The position numbers were made by a program, and so were the translations under genes. A DNA stretch of 64,000 nucleotides from Octopus vulgaris (taxonomy: Eukaryota), in contig OX597814.1 in the NCBI GenBank assembly GCA_951406725.2, positions 174,716,001 through 174,780,000 of the forward strand, written 5' to 3'. Under the pieces are notes generated by a model. That model was not told where the DNA came from. It did no database searches and saw nothing but the letters and a program-made list of their open reading frames with translations. Below are positions 3,837 through 57,246 of the stretch, in pieces (within the stretch, counting starts at the first letter, position 1; the number at the start of each line of letters is the position of its first letter).

Positions 3837-4519
3837 TGTTCTGGCAAGAAGAAAACACTTTTTGTTTTTCTTTTTAGGGCTAACTGCCATTAGATAATGA
3901 TGTAGAAGAATTTGATATTATTTCCAAAATGGAGCTAAAGCTAAAATTGATAATCACTCTCCCTTACATTCTTCCTATAATGGATACAAAGTGGAAATTC
4001 TATTCACAGTTTAAATACATCGCTAATTGTAGTTTATTTGTTATAATTTCCAGATTAACATGGGTGGAATGAGATTGGATGGAGCAGTTAATTTTACAGC
4101 AGGATATTTTTCAAATAATTAGCTTCTCAGAGTGAAGTAGTAGTACTGTTTATTGGCAGCTATACTGAGACAAGCTGAGTTATGTGCCTTGCCTAGGGAT
4201 ACAACTTTATAGCTGTACTGGTTAGGTGCTGATCACAGAATCAGTAGGTAGTACAGCATTACAACCTCTCAGCTAATCTCTGTCTTTACACATCTTTATT
4301 TTTCCAATGCGTTATTACTGGAATAGCTTTAGATTTCTGGTCCATTTTACTCTAATTCTGTACAGTAGACAGAAGTACAAAAATGTCATCACCATTCTCC
4401 TCCTCAATATTGCAATGTATTTAGTAACCCCTGAATAAGTCACTCCTGAATAAACAGACCTACAATGAAAGATTTTCCATTCGTGACCACTGTATCTCTT
4501 TATCTTTATTATATGTATA

Positions 4520-4952
4520 CTCTTTTACTTGTTTCAGTCATTTGACTGTGGCCATGCTGGAGTACCGCCCTTAGTCGAGCAAATCGACCCCAGGGCTTAT
4601 TCTTTGTAAGCCTAGTACTTATTCTATCGGTCTCTTTTGCCGAACCGCTAAGTTACGAAGACGTAAGCACACCAGCATCGGTTGTCAAGCGATGTTCAGT
4701 GGGGACAAACGCAGGCATACAAACATATACACACACACATACATACATACATATATATATATACATACACACACATATACATATATATGATGGGCTTCTT
4801 TCAGTTTCCATCTACCAAATCCACTCACAAGGCTTTGGTCGGCCTGAGGCTCTAGTAGAAGACACTTGCCCAGGGTGCCACACAGTGGGACTGAACCCAG
4901 AATCATGTGGTTCGTAAGCAAGCTACTTACCACACAGCCACTCCCACACCTA
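4520..4952 (-). mobile_element. tRNA-derived CORE-type SINE (family A), full length
   Basis: On the minus strand: head GGAGTGGCTGTGTGGTAAG..GGGTTCAGTCCC (A/B boxes), CORE-like CCTGGGCAAGTGTCTT, internal (TA/TG)n, tail ..GACTGAAACAAGTAAAAGAG. Many copies in the window. Confidence 0.88.
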
Positions 4953-4961
4953 TATATAATT

Positions 4962-5205
4962 TTATGCATTTGTAGAAGGATTTTTTTCAAAAGGTTAAGA
5001 TTGGGAGAAGAACTTTTTGGAGAGTGGAATAGTGCTGACCTTTGGGAGGGAATTTCACAAATTGTATGTAGGCTTTAATGAATTATCACAGCCTACACAC
5101 AATTTGTGAGGTTCCTTCCTAGAGGTTGGTACCATTCTGCTCTCTAAAAGATTGTTTTTTTTCTTAATCTTCACTTTTTGAAAATAATCTTTCTCTAAAT
5201 ATTAT
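4962..5205 (+). repeat. Long fold-back inverted repeat (candidate hairpin RNA)
   Basis: 4984-5074 pairs with 5090-5184, with weaker pairing outward and into the loop. Differences between the arms are dominated by G-U pairs on the + strand. Confidence 0.9.
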
Positions 5206-5243
5206 AACTGTATCAAGTAATTTCCTAGACTCTCTCTCTCTCT

Positions 5244-5246
<3 letters not shown>

Positions 5247-5292
<46 letters not shown>
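5247..5292. repeat. (TA)n microsatellite
   Basis: Perfect dinucleotide run. Other long runs: (TG)n ~6964-6996, (TA)n ~19806-19877, (GT)n ~40197-40240, (CT)n ~62231-62303. Confidence 0.95.
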
Positions 5293-5294
<2 letters not shown>

Positions 5295-5795
5295 TGGCTG
5301 ATGACAGTACCGCCTAATTGGCACCCATGCTAGTGGCACGTTAAAAGCACCATTTGAGCATGATCGTTGCCAGTGCCACCTGACTGGTTCCCATGCCGGT
5401 GGCACATAAAAAGCACCATTCAAGCATTGTCGATGATGCCAGTGCCACCTGACTGGTCCTGTGCCGGTGGCATGTAAAAACCATCATTCAATCATGGTCA
5501 TTGTCAGTGCTGCTTGACTGGCTCCTGTGCCGGTGGCACGTAAAAAGCACCATTCACGCATGGTTGATGCCAGTACCGCCTGACTGACCCTCGTGTCGCT
5601 GGCACATAAAAAGCACCCATTACACTCTCAGAGTGGTTGGCATTAGGAAGGGCATCCAGCTGTAGTAACTTTGTGAGATCGGATTGGAGCCTAGTACAGC
5701 CTTCTGGCTTGCCAGCCCTCAGTCAAACCATCCAACCCATGCTAGCATAGCATGGAAAGCGGACGTTAAACGATGACAATGATGATGATGATGAT
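5293..5795 (+). mobile_element. RTE-clade LINE 3' end (tandem ~66-bp units plus (GAT)n tail)
   Basis: Five GTGGCACGTAAAAAGCAC-containing units, then GGAAGGGCATCCAGCTGTAG..CATGGAAAGCGGACGTTAAACGATGA(TGA)n. The same UTR is joined to RTE coding sequence at 44481-45681. Confidence 0.85.
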
Positions 5796-6169
5796 GTATC
5801 AGGTCAATGAAGGAGAATCTCTCTCTGGGGAAAATAATGAAGTGTTTGTTCTCTCAACCTTTGAAAGTTTATGTTCTATCAACTAAGACAGTTCCAATTG
5901 TAGCTAGTCCTTGTATTACAACAACTTTTGAATTGTAGGGGTAGCATAGCTCTGAGTTCATTGGTCTATATAGTCCATTTTATAGAGTGATGTTGTTACA
6001 ATAATTTCTTCCCTGTAATGTAAACTATTTTGACAACTTTTATTTCATTAATTGTAACAATTTTCAGAGCTTTCATTTGGACAGAGTTGAGCTGGCTGAG
6101 TGTATTTTGTGTGGTGCATTTATCTAATATAGACAGGGTTAATCCACATTACTCCATAAAGAGCATAGG

Positions 6170-33729: not shown

Positions 33730-34586
33730 TTAACCCCTTATTGGATCAATTATTTTGACATGGCGTTTCATTTCAGAGCATATTTTTTAATTTCCTTTTT
33801 TAATTATATACACTGTGTTAATTACAAAAAAAAAAGTTTTTTATCTTGTTTCCTTTATGTTTTATTATAGAAATTAAAATGTACTTTTACTCATTTGGAT
33901 TTAAACAAGTTAACTCGGGCATTGAAAAAATACATATATATTAACTATCTTCAATTTTTTTATAAAATGTATTGCTTTTAAATCAAAGGGAAATTTTTTT
34001 TAAATGAGATAGTTTATATAGAATGATAATTTTTAAAACAAGGAGTTACTCACAAAGTTATCTTGTAGACATCACACATGTATTTGCTTTCTCTTTGAAT
34101 CTTCTTTCCTTTAGCGTCTCTCTTCTCTGCGCATTTTGCACACTGTCTTGTAGGGTTCTTTTTCTTATCACTTGATGGTATTTCCATGGGAAAGTAACCA
34201 GCTGGGGCAAATCTTGTTGGTTGTGGGATCAATGATGGTCTTCCTGGTTTCGTTGGAGGCAATAAGGGTCTATATTTTTCAATAACCTTGGTGATTATTT
34301 GCATTCTAAATTTCAGTGCTTTCATAGCAGAAGCTGAAGTTTCCAAAGATGCTTTATGCAAAACATAAGCATTCTAGATAGCTAAATCCATCAAATGAAA
34401 AAATACTTATTTTTTTCAACAACGAGAGTAAATTCATGATTGCTCAAAAATGAAACGACACAAAACAAATAAACTCATTTGAGTGCTAAAATTAAAAGTT
34501 AATTTTGACTTATTATACTCATCTGGTTCTAAAAAGATACATTTGCGATGCACGAGTAAACTCGGGATAATCCATTAAGGGGTTAA
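33730..34586 (-). mobile_element. Internally deleted piggyBac retaining the transposase C-terminus
   Basis: TTAA-CCCCTTATTGGA ... TCCATTAAGGGG-TTAA. Minus strand: VFFHLMDLAI*NAYVLHK..FRMQII..NPTRQCAKCAEK..RESKYMCDV, the end of the DDD domain and the Cys-rich domain (ORF 34050-34361). Confidence 0.9.
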
Positions 34587-35254
34587 CTCTCAGTATATTG
34601 CTAATATATATTTTTTAACACAACACCAACACCTATTCTGGCACTGTTTTTATATATATTGCTATCTTTTGTGGTCGAACATCCATCATTGACATGACCA
34701 AGGAAGGTTGAAATCATGTGATCTGGTGGTTTCAGCATTGGAGGTGGCAGGGTTTATCTCCAGACTAGCAATATAAACAAGAGTGCATTTTGCACCAAAA
34801 AGCCAATATGAAAGTTTCTCTCGTGGTATCTACCACAGTATAGTTTGTTCTAACAGAACATCTGTTTGAGATAAATATTACTTCTTGGTATTATTACTGC
34901 CTCTGTCACAAACATATATATATATAAATTTGTGTTTGCTTTTCTTTTTCAGTTTCTACATCAATCACAATACCAAGAAGACTCAGTGGGAACCTCCACA
35001 ATGGGAGACAGCAGATTCTACCACACACCAATCTGCTTCAACAGTGAGTGTCTCTTTTTTAATTGAAAATTTATGATTTGTAAACATTAAATAATTTTCT
35101 CTAATGGGCACGTTGGGTTTGCCGGTTGTTATGATAGGGATTCCTTTATTTCTCTTTCTTACTCTCTGCCATAACTTCTTTTGGGTACACCAATTCCACA
35201 GATTGCTCTCATGCTTGCAGATAGCTAGTCAGTGTTATTTTCATTCATTATATT

Positions 35255-35710
35255 TAATACTTTAGCTTTTAAACCAGCCTTATTTGGCCCAAATATTCTT
35301 ATTTCTTTACTACCCACAAGAGGCTACACACACAGGGGACAAACAAGGACAGACAAACGGATTAAGTCGATTATATTGACCCCCAGTGCTTAACTGGTAC
35401 TTATTTAATCGACCCCGAAAGGATGAAAGGCAAAGTCAACCTCAGCGGAATTTGAACTCTGAACGTAGCGGCAGACAAAATACCGCTAAGTATTTTGCCT
35501 GGCGTGCTAACATTTCTGCCAGCTCACCGCCCAAATATTCTGTTTGCTTTATATTCAAACTAGCCAGATCTGGCCTCTTACACTTACCCAATGATGTCAT
35601 TCTGAAAATAATCACATTAACAAAATATTGACCCTACAAAATGATGCATGATTAATTCAAGACAAATAAGCATTACATTTGACAGAGTAATCTGAATGCT
35701 AAAGGGTTAA
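35255..35710 (+). mobile_element. piggyBac MITE M2 containing a family B SINE (35300-35528, minus)
   Basis: M2 sequence on both sides, ending AATGCTAAAGGG-TTAA; SINE TSD GCCCAAATATTCT at 35287-35299 and 35529-35541. Confidence 0.85.
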
Positions 35711-38438
35711 TATTGTTCAGTATGAGCTGATGATCATACTGATGTGCTTGCATGGGCTCCTTCAGGCATGCTTACCTGAGGGCAGCCATTTCTCTTCATG
35801 GACACCTGCTCTTAAATCTTGTCATAAATCATCACACACAAACTTATCAGTTAAAGAAATTTCAGAGTTTTATCTATCTATCTGTCTGGTCAAGTTACTT
35901 GCCTAGTCCAATACAACTCTTCCACACCAGATGTCCTGATCTTCAATAGCAATCTTCATAACCTCAACCTGATATCCAGTGTCTTCCACAAGTTGATCAA
36001 TATGATCTTCTTTGTCTGCTGTTTCTTGGCTCTTTGACTCAAATCAAAGAGTAGTGTCTTCTCATCAGCTTAATATCTGACACAATCCTTATTTGGGGCC
36101 ATCAGTGTTAAACTGGTTTTTAGAATTAGGAGATGAGTGAGGGACTTCTTTCACTTTGCCATGAGTTGGCCTGGTATTTCAGTGCTTCCAGGATTCATAA
36201 GAACACAAATAATTCCTTAAAGTGAGTCTATGATAATGCTTTGAGTCATAAAATGCTTCGTTTCTATTATCTAATGTTGATTGTGGTATGTAACTTTTTA
36301 TAAAAACATTAAGCTTATTAGAGTATGAATTGGGTTTTGTTTGAAACTGTTTTGAAACATAACTTGGCATTTTCCTTTCTATTTTTTTCTTTTTCATTTT
36401 GTGTGTGTTGTCCTAAAGAATTAATTAATTTTGTTAGCTAACAATCTAAGAAGAGGGTGGGGAGTAAAAGTTGTTCATCAAGAAATACAGGAATATTGGA
36501 AGCTATTTGTTGCTGAGATACGTAAACAGATTTATGGATTTTTCACCAATGATTTTGTAATTCTTGTGTGCTGCACAAAGGCATCCAATTTTACTAGTGT
36601 ATTGCCTGTGGCTAGATTACATGACTGTCTTTCAAAGTATCAACATCAATTTCAATATTTTAGCTTCCACACAAATTCTTTGCATAGGATTTATTGAGCC
36701 ATTGCTGAAGCTACAAACATTCAGTTTGTCTTGTGTCTACAAAATTTCTGTTTCTTCTCATGAATCTTGTCAGTATTTCATTCTGAATGAATTTCTTGTT
36801 TATATCCTATCACACTAAATACACAAAGGAAAATATTTTATTTAGATTTTTGTTGCATTTACTGATTGCTGTTTTTATCTATGGATGTGAAGAACAGCTC
36901 TAAAATGCCAGTTTTTTTTGGTGTAATTAGTTTTTCTGTGTACCAGTTTAGAGAATTATATATCTATTTGTTCATTTCATTATAACAATTGGGAAATGAT
37001 ACCATCCTTGGTTACAAGTTTCTAGTGAGCCAGTCACTCATTCACTGTATTCCTAATGGTCAGAGGAATAAAGGAGAGTCTGTAACTCAATGAAGAACAA
37101 ATATTCCAGAATACTTTTAACAAGCACCAGTTTTTCAGTTTTCTCACCAGTCCTTATACCTTCTCCAAAACACACACACATATATTACCTTGCATGGAAA
37201 CAAGTGAGGATTGGCAACAGGAAGGGCATCCAACAGAAGAAAACCTGCTTCAGCGAATTCCATCTAACCATGCAAAGACGAAAAAGTGGATGATAAAATG
37301 ATGATGATGATAAATACAAAGAAATATGATGGGCTTCTGTATAGTTTTCCTTTATAAAATTTCATGGACAAGGTATTGGCCAACCTTAGGTTATGATAGG
37401 AGTTACTTGCACAAATTGCCATGCAGTGAGATAGAACCTGGAATCACATGATTGGAAGGTGAGCCTCTTAGTTACACAACCATACTACATCTATTGTAAA
37501 AGTTTTAGAGGCATACATTTTTATTGAGTGATTTTTCTTCATAATTATTCCAACATAAATTACAAAATTCAGCTAATTAATTATATGTTTATATCTAAAC
37601 GAATGAGCAACTAATGATCTCATGATTTTGATTACTGATATTATTCTCTGAGAGGTAAGCTGGCAGAATCATTAGCATGTCTGACAAAATGCTTAGCAGC
37701 ATTTCTTTCATCTCTTTATGTTCTGAGTTCAAATCCTGCCAAGATCAACTTTGGTTTTCATCCTCTCAGTACTGGTGTTGATGTAATTGACTTGCTCTCC
37801 CCATCTCATAATTGTGCCAAAATTAGAAAGGTTGTTATTTTCTCATTCTAACTTGAGTATTTAGCTTCCCTTCCTCAAAGTTCCTTTAAAACATCATCAT
37901 TTTACATTTGCTTTCCAGGTTGGCATAGGTTTCATGGATCATCAGAATTCAAGTCAATTCTCTATATACCTAGAGAAAAATACATTCATACATGTTGAAA
38001 TAACATGCTAACACTGTGTTAAGAATGGCTTAATGAAATATAATTAAAAATTAATCTGGTCATTTGTAGAAGATTCTTCAGACATTTTATTTTTGATTTT
38101 TGTCTTTTATTAATTATGGTAATGTGAATCAAATTCTTAATTTGTTGAAACTTCCTCTCGCACAAAAGGCAGAGATATTCTTAAAAGAACACTTGAGCAA
38201 AAAAAAAAAAGAAAAAAGGTAATTTAAATCTCCTATTAGATAGATGTAATCTAAATCATCTCAAGATTTTTTTTTTTTTTTTTTTGAGAAGCAGAAAATT
38301 ATTTTAGGGAAAAAAAAAAACAGTGAAAGGACTCTTTGAGTCTGTGTTTCTGTGTTATTGGCATGATGATGTTTTATAATTGTAACCACAAAGTATTTAT
38401 TGCAGCTTTGAAACTTCTCTAATTTCTGTTTGTTTCAG

Positions 38439-38558
38439 CTCCTGAATCAACCAAACCAAGAATCAACAAGTACTCGATTAGATAACCAACAAGTTGAAAT
38501 TCCATTACACTCTTTGGATGCTAATGGACATGTCCAGATCAATGAGCATGAAACTGAG
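38439..38558 (+). CDS. Internal coding exon (120 bp, phase 0/0) of an unidentified host gene
   Basis: Acceptor ctctaatttctgtttgtttcag| and consensus donor GAG|gtaagt; open frame LLNQPNQESTSTRLDNQQVEIPLHSLDANGHVQINEHETE; non-repetitive; phase-compatible with the next exon. Confidence 0.8.
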
Positions 38559-38586
38559 GTAAGTTGTTACATGATAAAAGTTGACT

Positions 38587-39632
38587 TTAACCCTTTTGTT
38601 ACCAAACCACCCAAAGCCGCCCGAATTTACCTATTCATATTTAAATGAGAATATCAGAGCAAATCTCTTCAGTACATTCGTGAAAACACGTATTATACTT
38701 CGTAAACAGTTCAACTACAGTTTTGTACAATAATCGAAGTGTAATTTTAATTCCGTGAATTTCGGGAGATTTTTTTCCGAAATTTGTTCCTATTGTGTTT
38801 TCAAAATTTGTAATTCTGACAAAAAATGGATACGAATTTCATTATATCAAGCAGCGAGTCAGAATTCAAAGGATTTTCTACTGAAGACCTTCATAAATCT
38901 AACTCTATGACTGAAAAAAAAAAGCACATGGTATTTGATAATGAATTTGATGTTTCATTTTCCGAAAGTGAAAACAGTGAATCTGAGATCTCCGATAGCG
39001 ATAAAGAAAACGAATTGGCACCTGAATGGAGTGAAAATTTAAAAACTGTTTCTTTCGGTGATTTTTCTGCAGAAACTGGACCAAGCCACAGACTTTCCCA
39101 GAAGGGTAAAGCCTTAGGCTATTTCTATTTACTTTTTCGAATGAGCCTATTTGAAATCATTACAGTGAAAACGAACCGTTACGCTAAACGTAAACAAAAC
39201 GAAAGAAAGGATAGTTTGTTATTTCCCACAACCTTAAATGAAATTAAGGCCTATTTTGCCATAAATATTATTATGGGTATCAGAAAGTTACCCAGAATAA
39301 CAAATTCTATCGTAAAATTTTGTTGTATACCCAATTGAATATTAGCTAATATTTTCTATAGTGATGTTTGAACAAAATTTTAATAATTTTATATTTTGTG
39401 GAATTTACCTGTATCTACCTGCAAATAGAGTCACTTTGTGACAAAAATTATAGTATAGAATTGGTTGAGAATATTTCATTAAATTATCTTCCAAAAATCA
39501 GATTAATATATCGATAAATAAAAAAGTTATAGTTGTTTAATGAAACCAGACTAAATTTATGATTACGTTAGAAATTAATTGAAACACATAAGGGGTGTAA
39601 TTTGGTCAGAAATATAGTAACGAAAGGGTTAA
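38587..39632 (+). mobile_element. Internally deleted piggyBac retaining the transposase N-terminus
   Basis: TTAA-CCCTTTTGTTAC ... GTAACGAAAGGG-TTAA; termini related to MITE M1; contains ORF 38826-39338. Confidence 0.92.
38826..39338 (+). pseudogene. Truncated piggyBac (PGBD-like) transposase ORF, 170 aa
   Basis: Acidic Ser-rich N-terminus, then W..FSAETGP..ALGYFYLLF..EIITVKTNRYA..TTLNEIKAYFAINIIMGIRKLP, the start of the piggyBac DDE_Tnp_1_7 domain; ends before the catalytic Asp residues. Confidence 0.85.
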
Positions 39633-39805
39633 GAAATAATAGAAATTTCTTTGATTTCTTCCCTCTCTTGTCCTTCTAAATTTGTTTTGCCTTTAATTAT
39701 GATTGATTGTTTTTAGGATCTGGAAATCATCTAGTTCTTCTTATCCCAAATGCAGGGGTGAGATATGGCAGAAATTATATTGTTGTTTAATAAAGAGTAA
39801 TTAAC

Positions 39806-40193
39806 AGGAGTAGCTATGTAATAAGAAGTTTGCTTCCAAACCAGATGGTTTTTTATTCAGTCCCACTGCATGGCACCTTAGGCATGTGTCTTTTACTATA
39901 GTCCAAGATCAACCAAGGCTTTGTGAGTGGATTTGGTAGATAGAAACTAAAAGGCGGCGAGCTGGCAGAAATGTTAGCATGCCGTGTGAAATGCTTAGCG
40001 GTATTTCGTCTGCTGCTACGTTCTGAGTTCAAATTCCACCGAGGTCGACTTTGCCTTTCATCCTTTCGGGGTGGATTAAATAAGTACCAGTTATGCATTG
40101 GGGTCGATATATTCAACTTAATCCGTTTGTTTGTCCCCTCTGTGTGTATCCCCTTGTGGGCAGTAAAGAAGTAAGAAACTAAAAGAAGCCCAT

Positions 40194-40242
<49 letters not shown>

Positions 40243-40490
40243 ACCTGCCTGCCTCTTCATCATCTTTGATATCTCATGTGATAGTTGTAAATGAGTGTCA
40301 CCATTATGCAAGTGGTGTCCTTTGTTTCCAATCTTCCATGTAAACATAACTGATCTTGGGGAAATATTACCTTACCTGGAAACAGGTGAAGGTCAGCAAC
40401 AGGAAGAACAGCCAGCTATCAAAACTCTGCCCAACTCATGTGAGTATGAGTGGGCATTAAAACAGTGATGGTGATGAAGATAATGATATA
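39806..40490 (+). mobile_element. SINE family A variant containing a nested family B SINE (39954-40173)
   Basis: 12-bp TSD AGAAACTAAAAG at 39942-39953 and 40174-40185. Confidence 0.87.
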
Positions 40491-40784
40491 AGGTTCTGCT
40501 TTTATGAGAGTGTCTTAGAATATCTTGAAATATCCTTTCCTCATAGATCTCAATTTTTCATCTGATCTAGTTCTCCTAAGAGTTTTTTGGTTTTTTTAAC
40601 TGATAATGAAACAAACAACATTGTTCTGTATAATGTTTCTGGTGATATGTTAGAGTACATTTGGTTTAATTAAGCTTTACTTTTATATTTAACAGTGGTT
40701 TAGATAAAATTAATTCATCGTAGCATTTGATTCCCATTTCAAAAAATTATAACACCCAAGTAGTTTATGGTATTGTAACATGTA

Positions 40785-41016
40785 AGGCGGCGAGCTGGCA
40801 GAATCGTTAGGACAGTGGGCGAAATGCTTAGCGGTATTTCGTCTGCCATTACGTTGTGAGTTCAAATCCCGCCGAGGTCGACTTTGCCTTTCATCCTTTC
40901 GGGGTCGATAAATTAAGTACCAGTTACACACTGGGGTCGATGTAATCGACTTAATATCTATGTCTGTCCTTGTTTGTCCCCTCTATGTTTAGCCCCTTGT
41001 GGGTAATAAAGAAATA
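40785..41016 (+). mobile_element. SINE family B, young
   Basis: 16-bp TSD GGTATTGTAACATGTA at 40769-40784 and 41017-41032. Confidence 0.93.
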
Positions 41017-41286
41017 GGTATTGTAACATGTACTTTTACTTCAAAGTAATGGGAGCATGTGTTTGTTTACATTTTACTAATTTTACTTACAAGTAAGCTT
41101 TAATAATCTTATATAGTTGTTTCATTGATAAATTGAATAGATAAGTGTTTATATTTATGAGTCCTTCTTTCAGTGAATGCACAACATTGAAGTATCAAGT
41201 TTTTAAGTCAAATTATTTGTTCCAGTTGTTGAAGTTTAATGTTTCCTGGGTTTTTTTTTTATTCATTTAATTTTTTTTTTTCTCAG

Positions 41287-41375
41287 ACAATTATTGACAA
41301 AGAAGAAATGTTAAACCAATTGAAGGCACAGTTTCCAAGTTGCAAAGGGTTCATAGTCAAAAATGTTCTGCAAAA
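41287..41375 (+). CDS. Internal coding exon (89 bp, phase 0/2) encoding the start of a CUE/UBA-like ubiquitin-binding domain
   Basis: Acceptor (t)n-ctcag|, donor AA|gtaagt; frame TIIDKEEMLNQLKAQFPSCKGFIVKNVLQ(K/N) fits the CUE pattern e.l..L...FP......i..vL. The domain call is motif recognition only. Confidence 0.8.
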
Positions 41376-41949
41376 GTAAGTAAAAAGATACCTTAAAATT
41401 TTCTTGATAGTTAGTTTTTGAAATTTTATTCAGTATACAATGTTACGCAACTTTTAACATTTCAGTTTTGAAATCATTTTATAGAATCCAGACCCTATAA
41501 AAAAATGAAAAAGAAAAGACTAGGTTACTTGGATAATTATTTAGTCCTAGATTTTAATATAGGAATTGAAAAAGTAAGTTTGAAATGTATCAATTCATTC
41601 TTTTTTCTTCTGTCTAAGCTTAGTCAGAGGAGAAACACACATGGTATACATTTACAGTGCTCTAAGTCTAATGGGGAAAATACTATAACAGTAGATCTGA
41701 ACTGAATGCTTAAAACTCTGCTAGAAGCATTGAAGGGCTAGGTAGGCATATTAAATTAGTCAGTAGATTGAGCCTGACACCCAAGAAAAGGCCTGTCCAT
41801 CAAAAGGATTTTGCAGTTTCGATCTATCCAAATTCAACCAGAAGGCTTGGGTTGACCCAAGATCATGGTAAAAATTATTTGCCTAAAAGGACCATGTGAT
41901 TGTGAAATGAACTTCAAAATTCATGGATACAGGCTTGTATGTGTGCAGT

Positions 41950-42495: not shown

Positions 42496-43034
42496 CAGAA
42501 TGCTGTTTGTTTGTGTGTGTGTGTGTGTATACATATATAGTAAACTTTCACTTTGCTTTCAGTTCGAACTGTTTGGTAATACTTAAATATATTGTGTGTC
42601 ATAAACAGAAACAAAAAGAAATCTTCACACTATGCAAGTTAAATATAATAATAATACTAATAATGATAATAATAATACATATATTCTTCAGGTTTTACCA
42701 ACCTGAAAATTTCTTATCCAAATATGTTACTCTCCCTGTTCTGCTGGGATGCCATTATCCAAAGCTATAATCTCATTAGTTCTATACAAAACTGATTTTT
42801 CCCTTTGTTAGCTAAGAGCTTTTAGCAACTTTATAAAATCAAACACTATATTCATTGTTTTATAATCTAAATCTGCTATGTTACTGTTGATTATTTCTTT
42901 ATTCTTTTACACTTTGTACCATTCTGTTATATATGTACCATCACAAGGAAGGTGCTTGTATGTGATCACTGAATCTGCAGGAAGTAGTAGGCAAATTTCT
43001 CTCTCTCATATATATATATACATATATATATATA

Positions 43035-43287
43035 TAATTAGAAAAAAAACCACCTTTTATCAATTCAAAATGAACAATTAAATTACACCATCTAGAAAAT
43101 TACATATAATAGAAATATTAAATATAAAATAACAATACTATACCAATTATTTATTATTTTGCACATTACTTAATCATCGGTATATCATTGCTATTTTATA
43201 TTTAATATTTCTATTATATGTAATTTTCTAGATGGTGTAATTTAATTGTTCATTTTGAATTGATAAAAGGTTGTTTTTTTCTAATTA
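43035..43287. repeat. Near-perfect palindromic element inside (TA)n
   Basis: ~110-bp arms (TAATTAGAAAAAAAAC..ATACC / GGTAT..GTTTTTTTCTAATTA), ~35-nt spacer, (TA)n on both sides. Confidence 0.92.
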
Positions 43288-43389
43288 TTATATATATATA
43301 TATATATATATATTTATTTTGTGAAATTTGATTTAGTATTTCTAAATTGAATTTTTCCCTGTAAGTTAGGAATAATATTCCCTCAAATT

Positions 43390-43519: not shown

Positions 43520-43958
43520 GATATAGAAATAATTTATTCTCAAATGCATAATAATGATAATACAATAGCATAAACAGGATAAACTATCCATATATTGCAG
43601 AAAAATTCGTTACCAGCCAGCCATGATACTCAAATTCACATGCCTGTGATTGCGTGTCAAGTGCTTTACCTTTAAGCTGAACTATCCAGTAATGTATTTT
43701 TCTGTAATTTTAGGATTTATCAATTGATTACTGGGCAGTTTAGCTTAAAAGTAAAGCATTTGACGTGTAATCACATGGATGTGAGTTTGAATCTCATGAC
43801 TATAATCTCATTTTTCTGCAATATATGGATAGTTTATCCTGTTCATGCTATTGCATTAGTATTATCATGTGTTTGAGAATAAATTATTTCTGTATCTTTC
43901 AGTACATCTCAACGCTTCTAAAACAAACTTTGTTTACTGTCATCAAAGTTGAATTTAT
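43520..43958. repeat. Palindromic element whose arms each carry a tRNA-like sequence, plus a one-sided tail
   Basis: Arms 43520-~43692 and ~43727-43896; tRNA-like units at ~43615-43688 (-) and ~43733-43803 (+); unpaired tail to ~43958, then (TA)n. Confidence 0.85.
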
Positions 43959-56263: not shown

Positions 56264-57246
56264 TCACTCTCTATTGTTTTCACTTTCCTTTTACAGATGC
56301 TATTGTTTTCACTTTAAATTTTCAGATGCCATTGTTTCACTTTAAGTTCATTCGCTATTCTTTTCACTGTAAATTTTCAATCGCTATTTACAAACAACAG
56401 ACAAATTTCTGACAGAACGTTCACAATTACTAATGAAAGTAATTTCATAATTTGCTAACAGAAGTAACAAAAATTTCACTTAAATCCATACTCTTAGTTA
56501 ATTTCCTTAAAAATTTCTTATTTACTTTTGCAACAGTTTTGTTTTGATTTTTTTCCTGTTGTTGATGTTTTTTTTTCTGGTTCCTTCGATACTGGCTCTT
56601 TGGTTCACTGAGTGACAAATTTTACTTCAAACCGTACAATTCTTTATTTTCCAAAAAAATTTCTTATCTACTTTCTGCTTATCATATTAAGAAACATAAT
56701 TTTTATTCATAAGTTATTTTCATTGTTTACTATCTTCTGCAATGGTGTATTTCTGTATACATATATAACCATGCATAGAAGAAAAGTCTCAAAATTGTCT
56801 ACAATGTCAAGGTCAGCCAAAAGAATGTCCCTGTCCAGGGAAAGAGTGACAGCTGCAGAAAGGGAAGCATGCCAAGAAACGAACAGACTGCACTACAAAA
56901 CCCAGAGCATCTCAAAGTGATGAACAGAGGTATGCACGGCAGACAAGGAACAGGATTTCCATTGTAGAACAAAGAGCAGTTGCAACAGCTCAGAGAAGCA
57001 ATTTCTATGAAGTATCTTTCAATTATGATCCAACAGTTAGTTCATTATGCAGATGACACTAGAGTTTCCATTGGTGCAATGACAGAGTGCATTTATTGTA
57101 AAGTGAGGAAGTGGTCTGGTAAAACACCTGTACTGTGCTGCAGTGGTGGAAAGGTTAAACCCCCTGCAATCTCCCAACCTCTAAATCCGGCATTTTTAAA
57201 TTTCATTATTTTCTTTAACCTGAGCAATGCCAGGTATTTCTGCTAG
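56059..57246 (+). mobile_element. Non-autonomous Helitron with a Rep/Hel N-terminal remnant
   Basis: Probable 5' A|TC start. From ATG 56771: MHRRKVSKLS..SRSAKRM..R..EREA, then VSIGAMTECIYCKVRKWSGKTPVLCCSGGKVKPP (Helitron CxxC..W..CC..GKV zinc motif). 3' hairpin ACCTG-AGCAATGC-CAGGT (~57218-57235) followed by CTAG at 57243-57246. The 5' boundary is uncertain within the microsatellite. Confidence 0.87.

What the first reader, a model, noticed from the sequence alone, without database searches (positions are those of the whole stretch)
4962..5205. Long hairpin whose arms diverged almost only into G-U wobble pairs on the + strand
Seen: hand-pairing the gap-free core (5014-5074 with 5090-5150) gives 47 Watson-Crick, 12 G-U, 2 A-C and no transversion mismatches. 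Extending to 4984/5184 (two small bulges) gives about 17 G-U, 2 A-C and 1 U-C. Neutral transitions in a DNA palindrome should give G-U and A-C about equally; 17:2 has a two-sided binomial p near 7e-4. Caveats: four of the G-U pairs could be two CpG-decay events, and this is the most extreme of about seven hairpins examined. The palindromes at 43520, 48360 and 59539 show mixed mismatch types. The + strand is also the sense strand of the two host exons. Inference: either (a) the duplex is kept by selection at RNA level (hpRNA/endo-siRNA precursor or ADAR substrate), or (b) it is a genomic fossil of an A-to-I hyper-edited hairpin RNA that was reverse-transcribed back, since every G-U here is explained by a + strand A>G change. 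Extensive ADAR editing in coleoid cephalopods is established, which makes (b) plausible.
Basis: partly seen in the sequence, partly recalled or inferred. Interest (0 to 1): 0.85.

Follow-up and report, generated by a model that had tools for sequence, protein, structure and literature searches.

The report
RNA editing fossilised in octopus DNA
A small transposon hairpin in an octopus intron has a quarter of its adenosines changed to guanosine on one strand, in the sequence pattern of the RNA-editing enzyme ADAR, so it is likely an edited RNA that was copied back into inherited DNA, and seven similarly marked retrotransposon copies elsewhere in the genome suggest that this happens repeatedly.

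Summary
The hairpin and its G-U bias are real. It is one copy of a small dispersed foldback repeat. Against the family majority, 20 of 80 + strand A's read G, against 1 of 84 T>C and 0 of 29 C>T. No changed A follows G or C, and 5 of 6 UAG sites changed: the ADAR signature. The flanks are unaffected. None of 50 other family loci or 204 other inverted repeats is like it. This refutes selection and CpG decay. A genome-scale run holds the G's, so an RNA-polishing artefact is unlikely. The hairpin lies on the sense strand of an intron and has an unedited sister copy. A genome-wide motif test found 7 hyper-edited SINE copies on the inferred SINE sense strand and none antisense. So edited RNA likely is retroposed in this germline. 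Best reading: an ADAR-edited read-through RNA, reverse-transcribed from the neighbouring SINE tail. The route for this copy is inferred; in-place rewriting is not excluded.

The parts
4969..5083 (+). Left arm and loop of the foldback repeat; 14 of 45 ancestral A's read G (4972, 4978, 4993, 5003, 5004, 5007, 5010, 5019, 5026, 5034, 5037, 5044, 5048, 5080); one more A>G at 4966 just outside
   Evidence: 5007 and 5010 lie in an A-run whose alignment is less sure, 5080 at the loop edge
5084..5200 (+). Right arm; 6 of 35 ancestral A's read G (5110, 5111, 5122, 5128, 5139, 5150), none of 12 in 5151-5200
   Evidence: 5150 lies beside an indel
5201..5228 (+). Unpaired terminal extension of the repeat family (present on one end of most copies)
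5229..5292 (.). (CT)n(AT)n microsatellite between the hairpin and the SINE-like repeat
5293..5797 (+). 5'-truncated SINE-like retroposon with 66-nt tandem units and an intact (GAT)n tail; proposed primer site and carrier of the edited RNA (inferred); shows CpG decay, not A>G (1 of 104 A)
   Evidence: the sister copy has the same subfamily cut at the same point
4516..4955 (-). High-copy SINE with a tRNA-like head at 4955 (head and strand inferred from A/B-box-like motifs and a tandem tail; label recalled, not from a call). This copy is not hyper-edited (4 of 85 A on +), but its family holds the hyper-edited copies L174-L183
34953..35043 (+). Second coding exon of the host gene (WW domain, P0001); the first coding exon is at G000:C1:174711363-174711442, so the hairpin lies in a 39.5-kb intron on the sense strand
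38439..38558 (+). Third coding exon of the host gene

Best explanation
The hairpin is a copy of a small foldback repeat whose + strand carries 20 A-to-G changes in the ADAR pattern, likely because one folded RNA molecule was hyper-edited and then reverse-transcribed into germline DNA, probably by retroposition primed at the neighbouring SINE tail. Steps: (1) shown: the ancestral state was A at these sites and the hairpin was a near-perfect palindrome; (2) shown: the changes are one-stranded, confined to the stem and follow ADAR neighbour preference; (3) inferred: a read-through RNA carrying hairpin + microsatellite + truncated SINE (from the sister locus L002 or its ancestor) folded and had about 25% of its stem A's deaminated to inosine; (4) inferred: LINE-type reverse transcriptase started at the (GAT)n tail, read inosine as G, stopped at the foot of the hairpin, and the copy landed in the intron; (5) shown for another SINE family, inferred for this copy: hyper-edited RNA does get retroposed in this germline. 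The result is a passive fossil: a still-foldable, partly pre-edited G-U duplex with no shown function. Edited RNA copied back by any reverse-transcription route: about 0.77; this particular route: 0.62.
For: 20 of 80 A>G vs 1 of 84 T>C (Fisher p 2e-6), 0 of 29 C>T; 5' neighbour U 10/21, A 10/40, C 0/7, G 0/12; 3' G 10/17 (p 8e-4). UAG 5/6, AAG 5/8, GAN 0/12; ordinary A>G in the other family arms shows no such context (5' G rate 0.037, 5' U 0.022). A second, BLAST-based count gives 19:1. Only outlier of 51 family loci, next 5:0, and of 7,379 windows over 152,380 polarised repeat sites. Flanks: 4 of 85 and 1 of 104 A>G. Sister copy L002: same core-to-core distance (53) and the only other carrier of a private A>C (the window's distance read), A at 16 of 17 alignable edited sites, no shared outer flank, so the unit runs from the hairpin foot into the SINE. 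Run X1 holds a 292-nt contig over 4924-5215 with 2 differences. Genome-wide motif test in the left SINE's family: 10 hits where about 1.5 were expected by chance, 9 with further G's; outside the motif A>G 49/372 vs T>C 10/337 (p 5e-7), 5' U 18/56, A 23/132, C 6/84, G 2/97; 7 of 10 carry 8-14 extra A>G, with different patterns (median overlap 0.19) on different subfamily backgrounds; one has a target-site-like direct repeat of 37 nt or more. Antisense motifs: 0 hits and 1 hit without extra G. Octopus has the highest hyper-editing signal of the species surveyed, with 5' G depletion in all groups (PMC5625713, passages); squid editing of repeats is widespread and ADARs are broadly transcribed (PMC9068888, passages).
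Against: No clear target-site duplication bounds the unit. The SINE family next to the hairpin gave no hyper-edited copy at the one motif tested: 1 hit, about 1 expected, not hyper-edited. The sister's SINE is only 81% identical to ours, no closer than other subfamily copies, and its 3' part is interrupted and differs, so L002 as it stands is not the direct donor. The 3' G share here (10 of 20) is higher than the 20-25% reported for bulk octopus hyper-editing (PMC5625713). The + strand is also the host pre-mRNA strand, which fits in-place rewriting equally well. Runs X4, X8 and X10 show no cover over 4977-5015, which is odd if the insertion is as old as its 4% other divergence suggests. In the hyper-edited SINEs the edited A's are not predicted paired in a lone SINE RNA (0.22 vs 0.40), so their partner strand is unknown. 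Human ADAR1 was reported not to edit L1 RNA (PMC5224506, passages).
Confidence: 0.62

Rival explanations
1. In-place rewriting: the hairpin was already in the intron, the host pre-mRNA was hyper-edited, and a cDNA or the RNA itself served as template for repair or gene conversion over about 185 nt (4966-5150).
For: The edited strand is the host gene's sense strand. Edits stop at 5150 (0 of 12 A's beyond). Other runs that hold much of the flank lack the edited left arm, as an unedited allele might. Partial-gene retroprocessing is described in plant mitochondria (PMC4987113, abstract).
Against: In-place rewriting should hit SINEs of either orientation, yet hyper-edited copies were found on the sense strand only. 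The 17 other inverted repeats of the window show no G-U excess. No contig with an unedited loop was listed in three other runs, though short contigs are not listed.
Confidence: 0.15
2. Direct deamination of DNA: ADAR acted on the + DNA strand while it was paired with RNA, either in an R-loop where the palindromic transcript pairs with the displaced strand, or on a single-stranded rolling-circle intermediate of this Helitron-associated repeat.
For: ADAR2 edits the DNA strand of long DNA/RNA hybrids with the same neighbour preference (PMC5389660, passages); ADAR1 was proposed as a DNA mutator at edited loci (10.1101/2020.02.11.943845, abstract). A longer relative of the repeat lies just upstream of PIF1-helicase frames in the orientation that equals the window's + strand.
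Against: A gradual process should mark other transcribed hairpins and other family copies; none is marked. Two A's facing C in good contexts (5031, 5066) are still A, against a process still running. The SINE fossils are strand-specific for the RNA. Deoxyinosine in duplex DNA is normally repaired (recalled).
Confidence: 0.12
3. Assembly or data artefact: edited RNA reads or a systematic error put G's into the assembly.
For: Only 1 of 4 runs laid covers the edited left arm; its library is not on record, its depth is about 4, and it may be the assembly's own source. The SINE hits were not checked in reads.
Against: That run has 1,503 million letters of contigs and 27,464 pieces laid, like the genomic runs beside it; its contig agrees at 290 of 292 letters. 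The SINE hits lie on 9 chromosomes-scale contigs plus C1 with different patterns and carry ordinary decay as well.
Confidence: 0.04
4. Selection for an RNA duplex (hairpin-RNA or endo-siRNA precursor, ADAR substrate) that tolerates only G-U changes.
For: The + strand still folds very stably and is transcribed as intron.
Against: G-U can arise from A>G or C>T; observed 20:0 where about 52:48 was expected, and A>G is nine times the family rate, which purifying selection cannot give. Selection does not explain the 5' U/A, 3' G context.
Confidence: 0.02
5. Ordinary or transcription-biased mutation, CpG decay, or another mutator.
Against: Flanks in the same intron are at the background rate of about 2.5% of A; P 4e-13 for the count; ancestral bases are A, not CpG.
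Confidence: 0.05

Closest known systems
ADAR hyper-editing fixed in avian retroviral DNA (Felder et al. 1994; Hajjar and Linial 1995; seen only as cited in PMC8586724, passages)
   Same: Clustered A>G with ADAR context that reached DNA through reverse transcription.
   Different: Those are viral genomes in infected cells; this is a cellular, non-viral repeat in a nuclear intron, and SINE copies, in an assembled animal genome.
APOBEC-edited LTR retrotransposons in vertebrate genomes (PMC4866542, passages; PMC2873906, passages)
   Same: Hypermutated retro-copies that integrated and were inherited; detected by one-strand clusters against a family consensus with a neighbour motif.
   Different: G>A from C-to-U on cDNA, vertebrates only; invertebrates and DNA transposons were negative controls there, and the main text has no mention of ADAR. 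Here it is A>G, at the RNA stage, in an invertebrate.
Retroprocessing of edited transcripts in plant mitochondria (PMC4987113, abstract)
   Same: Edited RNA reverse-transcribed and written into the genome, often over part of a gene.
   Different: C-to-U, organellar, in place and with intron loss; here A-to-I, nuclear, in a repeat, route probably a new insertion.
A-to-I hyper-editing of repeat hairpins in RNA, very high in octopus (PMC5625713, passages; PMC9068888, passages)
   Same: Substrate type (long inverted repeat in a transcript), density of changes, 5' G depletion.
   Different: There the DNA keeps A; here the DNA has G. The 3' G preference is stronger here than in bulk octopus data.
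Non-autonomous foldback / MITE-like repeats associated with Helitron-type elements
   Same: Short, palindromic, at least 51 dispersed loci, ends in microsatellites; a longer relative lies beside PIF1 helicase frames.
   Different: DNA transposons have no RNA step, so the edits need a separate route; the family's own transposition mechanism was not established.

Membership tests
Genomic fossil of ADAR-edited RNA | Cluster of A>G on one strand against the ancestral state | tested here: met
   20 of 80 vs 1 of 84 T>C; 19:1; sister has A at 16 of 17
Genomic fossil of ADAR-edited RNA | Confined to a region that is double-stranded as RNA | tested here: met
   stem edited, flanks 4/85 and 1/104; not shown for the SINE copies
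Genomic fossil of ADAR-edited RNA | ADAR neighbour preference (5' G depleted, 5' U/A favoured) | tested here: met
   motif per PMC2873906 and PMC5625713 passages
Genomic fossil of ADAR-edited RNA | The changed strand is the RNA strand | tested here: inconclusive
   sense of the host intron and of the adjacent tail-bearing SINE; no RNA reads laid
Genomic fossil of ADAR-edited RNA | G's are in DNA, not only in the assembly | tested here: met
   contig of run X1, 290 of 292 letters; library not on record, judged genomic by size
Retroposed copy (target-primed reverse transcription) | 3' tail, 5' truncation, target-site duplication | tested here: inconclusive
   intact (GAT)n tail and a unit shared with the sister without outer flanks; no clear duplication
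Retroposed copy (target-primed reverse transcription) | Empty site in an orthologous locus | not testable with these tools
   no related genome held; contigs of other runs do not settle it
Selected hairpin RNA / endo-siRNA precursor | Structure kept by mixed A>G and C>T or compensatory changes at or below neutral rate | tested here: not met
   20:0, nine times the family rate
Selected hairpin RNA / endo-siRNA precursor | Small RNAs from the stem | not tested
   the one read-laying run went to DNA runs; no Rfam match over the hairpin
APOBEC-edited retroelement | G>A cluster on the sense strand | tested here: not met
   G>A 3 of 29
Foldback / MITE-like repeat | Long inverted arms, dispersed copies, no coding capacity | tested here: met
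   78 arms in 51 loci
Helitron-derived element | Link to a Rep/PIF1 helicase element and Helitron termini | tested here: inconclusive
   PIF1 and Pif1 2B matches beside the arm in L088; termini not established

The most novel reading that the evidence does not exclude
The octopus germline rewrites its own DNA from edited transcripts: this intron was converted in place by its own ADAR-edited pre-mRNA, recently enough that other animals still carry the unedited allele, and together with some hundreds of retroposed edited SINEs this makes A-to-I editing a heritable mutational process in cephalopods.
Probability: 0.15. Interest if true: 0.92.

Novelty: new variant of a known kind. Interest (0 to 1): 0.74.

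Why it matters
A-to-I editing is taken to leave DNA untouched. Here it has left an inherited mark in the animal group that edits most. The fossils are direct records that ADAR edits repeat RNA in cells that contribute to the germline and that edited molecules can still be reverse-transcribed, which bears on the open question whether ADAR restrains retrotransposons by editing them. They can be counted, dated and typed by motif from genomes alone: a rough scale is 7 clear cases among about 98,000 copies at one three-site motif, so of the order of a hundred or more copies in that family (inferred). They also matter in practice: such copies can be misread as editing sites or distort repeat ages. 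Ten library searches listed no paper that reports inherited ADAR-edited SINE or hairpin copies in an animal nuclear genome; the library lacks most subscription papers, so this is not proof of novelty.

Tried and rejected
A first, unmasked scan seemed to give a second extreme hairpin (L138, 28:1) and a third (L130, 27:8); the first is a (TA)n/(TATG)n microsatellite, the second two head-to-head SINEs with CpG decay. Both were dropped and the scan was rerun with simple repeats masked and overlapping loci removed (129 sequences, 817 kb). Motif searches for other edited copies of the hairpin family found only this copy. L035/L017 has 6 A>G in each arm, mirrored, so 7:8 by strand: not a one-strand cluster. 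L166:6101 (8 of 22 A>G among 19 differences) is within what some thousand windows give by chance (my estimate). The idea that shared SINE bases prove L002 to be the donor failed: they mark a subfamily of at least 257 copies. No homology was found between the unique flanks of the two sister loci. A contig joint in run X8 that skips 4961-5199 could be a deletion allele or a paralogue and was not used. Missing cover in runs X4, X8, X10 is not proof of absence. Target-site duplication for the unit: only a 6-nt word in AT-rich sequence, not accepted. Pfam scan of 31 long frames did not find the host gene; a splice-site scan did.

Full report
Observation. With simple repeats masked, it is the most skewed of 205 inverted repeats in 817 kb and the only 1 of 102 informative ones with 85% or more of one mismatch type; the 17 others of the window total 104 G-U to 95 A-C.

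What the sequence is. A search of the window's own genome (G000, 2.8 Gb) gave 98 matches. With further motif searches and fetches I held 78 arms in 51 loci. It is a small dispersed foldback family, about 7% diverged from its majority (343 differences in 4,774 sites of 38 arms; these 38 include near-identical duplicates), with ends in microsatellites. A longer relative lies upstream of frames that match PIF1 helicase families, so the family is probably Helitron-associated; its own mode of movement was not established. The copy lies in the 39.5-kb intron between the first and second coding exons of a WW-domain gene on the + strand; the protein P0001 is named by its source as from Octopus vulgaris and sits on a contig of the same length as C1.

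Direction of the changes. Against the majority of the other arms, the stem 4969-5200 has 20 A>G of 80 A, 1 T>C of 84 T, 0 C>T of 29 C, 3 G>A of 29 G and 5 transversions on the + strand. Three or four of the 20 (5007, 5010, 5150, 5080) sit where alignment is less sure; an independent BLAST count gives 19:1. Both arms are hit on the same strand (14 of 45 and 6 of 35). At family rates 2.2 A>G were expected (P 4e-13), and G-U pairs should come about equally from A>G and C>T (P of 20:0 is 2e-6). This removes selection for pairing and CpG decay as the origin.

Signature. Edited A's follow U (10 of 21) or A (10 of 40), never C (0 of 7) or G (0 of 12), and often precede G (10 of 17); UAG 5 of 6, AAG 5 of 8. 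Ordinary A>G changes in the other arms show no such pattern. Depletion of 5' G is the ADAR motif in all animal groups surveyed (PMC5625713, passages; PMC2873906, passages). Against the reading: that survey gives octopus a weak 3' G preference (20-25% of sites), while here it is 50%. The changes stop at the hairpin: the left SINE has 4 A>G of 85 A and the right one 1 of 104, with C>T and G>A decay instead, against a background of 1,022 of 40,949. No other family locus is like it (next 5:0), nor any other 120-nt window of polarised repeat DNA. So this looks like one burst on one molecule, not a slow bias.

Is it in DNA? Four runs were laid on 4860-5240, all as contigs. Run X1 has one 292-nt contig over 4924-5215 with 2 other letters, one a further A>G at 4977, at depth 4. 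Its library is not on record; its size and repeat content match the genomic runs. It may be the assembly's own source, which would still exclude RNA polishing if it is DNA. Runs X4, X8 and X10 have no cover over 4977-5015. That could mean an empty site, a deletion, an unedited allele broken into short contigs, or dropped contigs; it cannot be told.

The sister copy. L002, 2.1 Mb away on C1, shares the core-to-core distance of 53 nt and a private A>C found in no other copy held, and is followed by a microsatellite and the same SINE-like subfamily cut at the same point. It has A at 16 of 17 alignable edited sites and folds alike on both strands. Homology covers hairpin, microsatellite and SINE but no outer flank. 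A unit that begins at the foot of the hairpin and ends in a retroposon tail on the + strand is what retroposition of a read-through RNA would leave. Against: no clear target-site duplication, the two SINEs are only 81% alike, and the sister's 3' part is now different.

Does edited RNA get retroposed in this genome? I searched the genome for a 32-nt motif of the high-copy SINE family that also flanks the hairpin on the left, asking for G at three ADAR-favoured A's. About 98,000 copies carry the motif and about 1.5 triple changes are expected by chance (6 at a higher rate). Ten were found, nine with further G's at optional sites (33 of 70). All ten were fetched. Outside the motif they have 49 A>G of 372 A against 10 T>C of 337 T (p 5e-7), with 5' U 18/56, A 23/132, C 6/84, G 2/97, and only 1 of 270 in the 5' half. 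Seven carry 8-14 extra A>G, two carry 3, one carries 1; patterns differ between copies and the copies belong to different subfamilies. Two motifs for the opposite strand gave 0 hits and 1 hit with no extra G. The edited strand is the one with the tRNA-like head and the tandem tail, which I take as the RNA strand (inferred; the head label is recalled). A sense-only pattern is what retroposition predicts and what in-place rewriting or DNA editing does not. Limits: the motifs are not matched exactly in sensitivity, the hits were not checked in reads, the edited A's are not predicted paired in a lone SINE RNA, and the (GAT)n-tailed family beside the hairpin gave no hyper-edited copy at its one motif. 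The left SINE itself cannot be the carrier, as it faces the other way.

Mechanism. Shown: ancestral A's, one-strand stem-limited A>G, ADAR context, presence in a genome-scale run, hyper-edited SINE copies elsewhere. Inferred: editing of a folded + strand RNA, reverse transcription, germline insertion, and the route. I put 0.62 on retroposition from the adjacent tail, 0.15 on in-place conversion by the host pre-mRNA, 0.12 on direct editing of DNA in an RNA-DNA hybrid (possible in vitro: PMC5389660, passages), 0.05 on other mutation, 0.04 on artefact, 0.02 on selection. Two A's that now face C in good contexts (5031, 5066) are still A, which weakly favours an old, single event.

Comparison and novelty. 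The nearest cases are ADAR-hypermutated avian retroviruses (as cited in PMC8586724, passages), APOBEC-edited LTR elements in vertebrate genomes, where invertebrates served as a negative control (PMC4866542, passages; one supplementary file not searchable), and retroprocessing in plant mitochondria (PMC4987113, abstract). Human ADAR1 was reported to restrict L1 without editing it (PMC5224506, passages). Ten searches (listings only, except the papers named) showed no report of inherited ADAR-edited SINEs or hairpins in an animal nuclear genome. Verdict: a real feature, a new variant of a known kind, with a genome-wide extension that can be tested at once.

Noticed in passing
L174-L183 (G000 C1, C10, C12, C16, C18, C22, C23, C24, C27, C28), around 900-1120 of each in SINE orientation: SINE copies with A>G clusters in ADAR context on one strand, limited to the 3' half; 7 of 10 heavily changed; the pairing partner of that half is unexplained.
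   Followed up: partly
L179: A hyper-edited SINE copy flanked by a direct repeat of at least 37 nt, like a long target-site duplication.
   Followed up: partly
L002 (G000:C1:176829950-176830600): Unedited sister copy of the hairpin between two SINE-like repeats of one orientation; candidate donor lineage.
   Followed up: yes
L035:5378-5635 (also L083, L092): A sub-lineage of the family in which both arms share several A>G changes in mirror image, as after arm-to-arm copying; could descend from one edited arm.
   Followed up: no
L088:3-853, minus strand: Broken PIF1-type helicase frames next to a longer form of the repeat with several arm-like modules; L089, L091, L095, L097 share the longer form.
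   Followed up: partly
window 34953-41391 and G000:C1:174711363-174711442: Host gene with an N-terminal WW domain split across a 39.5-kb intron; its source calls it mucin-5AC, which the Pfam scan does not support (only WW found).
   Followed up: partly
window 36018-36208 +: U2 snRNA-like copy (63.5 bits) inside the host gene's second intron.
   Followed up: no
window 38820-39338 + and 34050-34373 -: piggyBac-like transposase fragment (PF13843) and a second transposon-like frame without a Pfam match.
   Followed up: no
window 56612-57246 +: Frames that resemble a Helitron N-terminal region (recalled likeness; Pfam gave only a weak Reticulon match below its cut-off).
   Followed up: partly
window 43010-43313; L140:8552-8877; L157:9707-10000: Near-perfect palindromes with no loop, some made of a whole SINE part; common in this genome (70 tight hairpins in 817 kb).
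   Followed up: no
window 4960/5200, run X8: One contig joins 4960 to 5200, skipping the whole palindrome; deletion allele or paralogue.
   Followed up: no
window 4977, run X1: One further A>G beside an edited site in the second haplotype-like contig (depth 4; may be an error).
   Followed up: no
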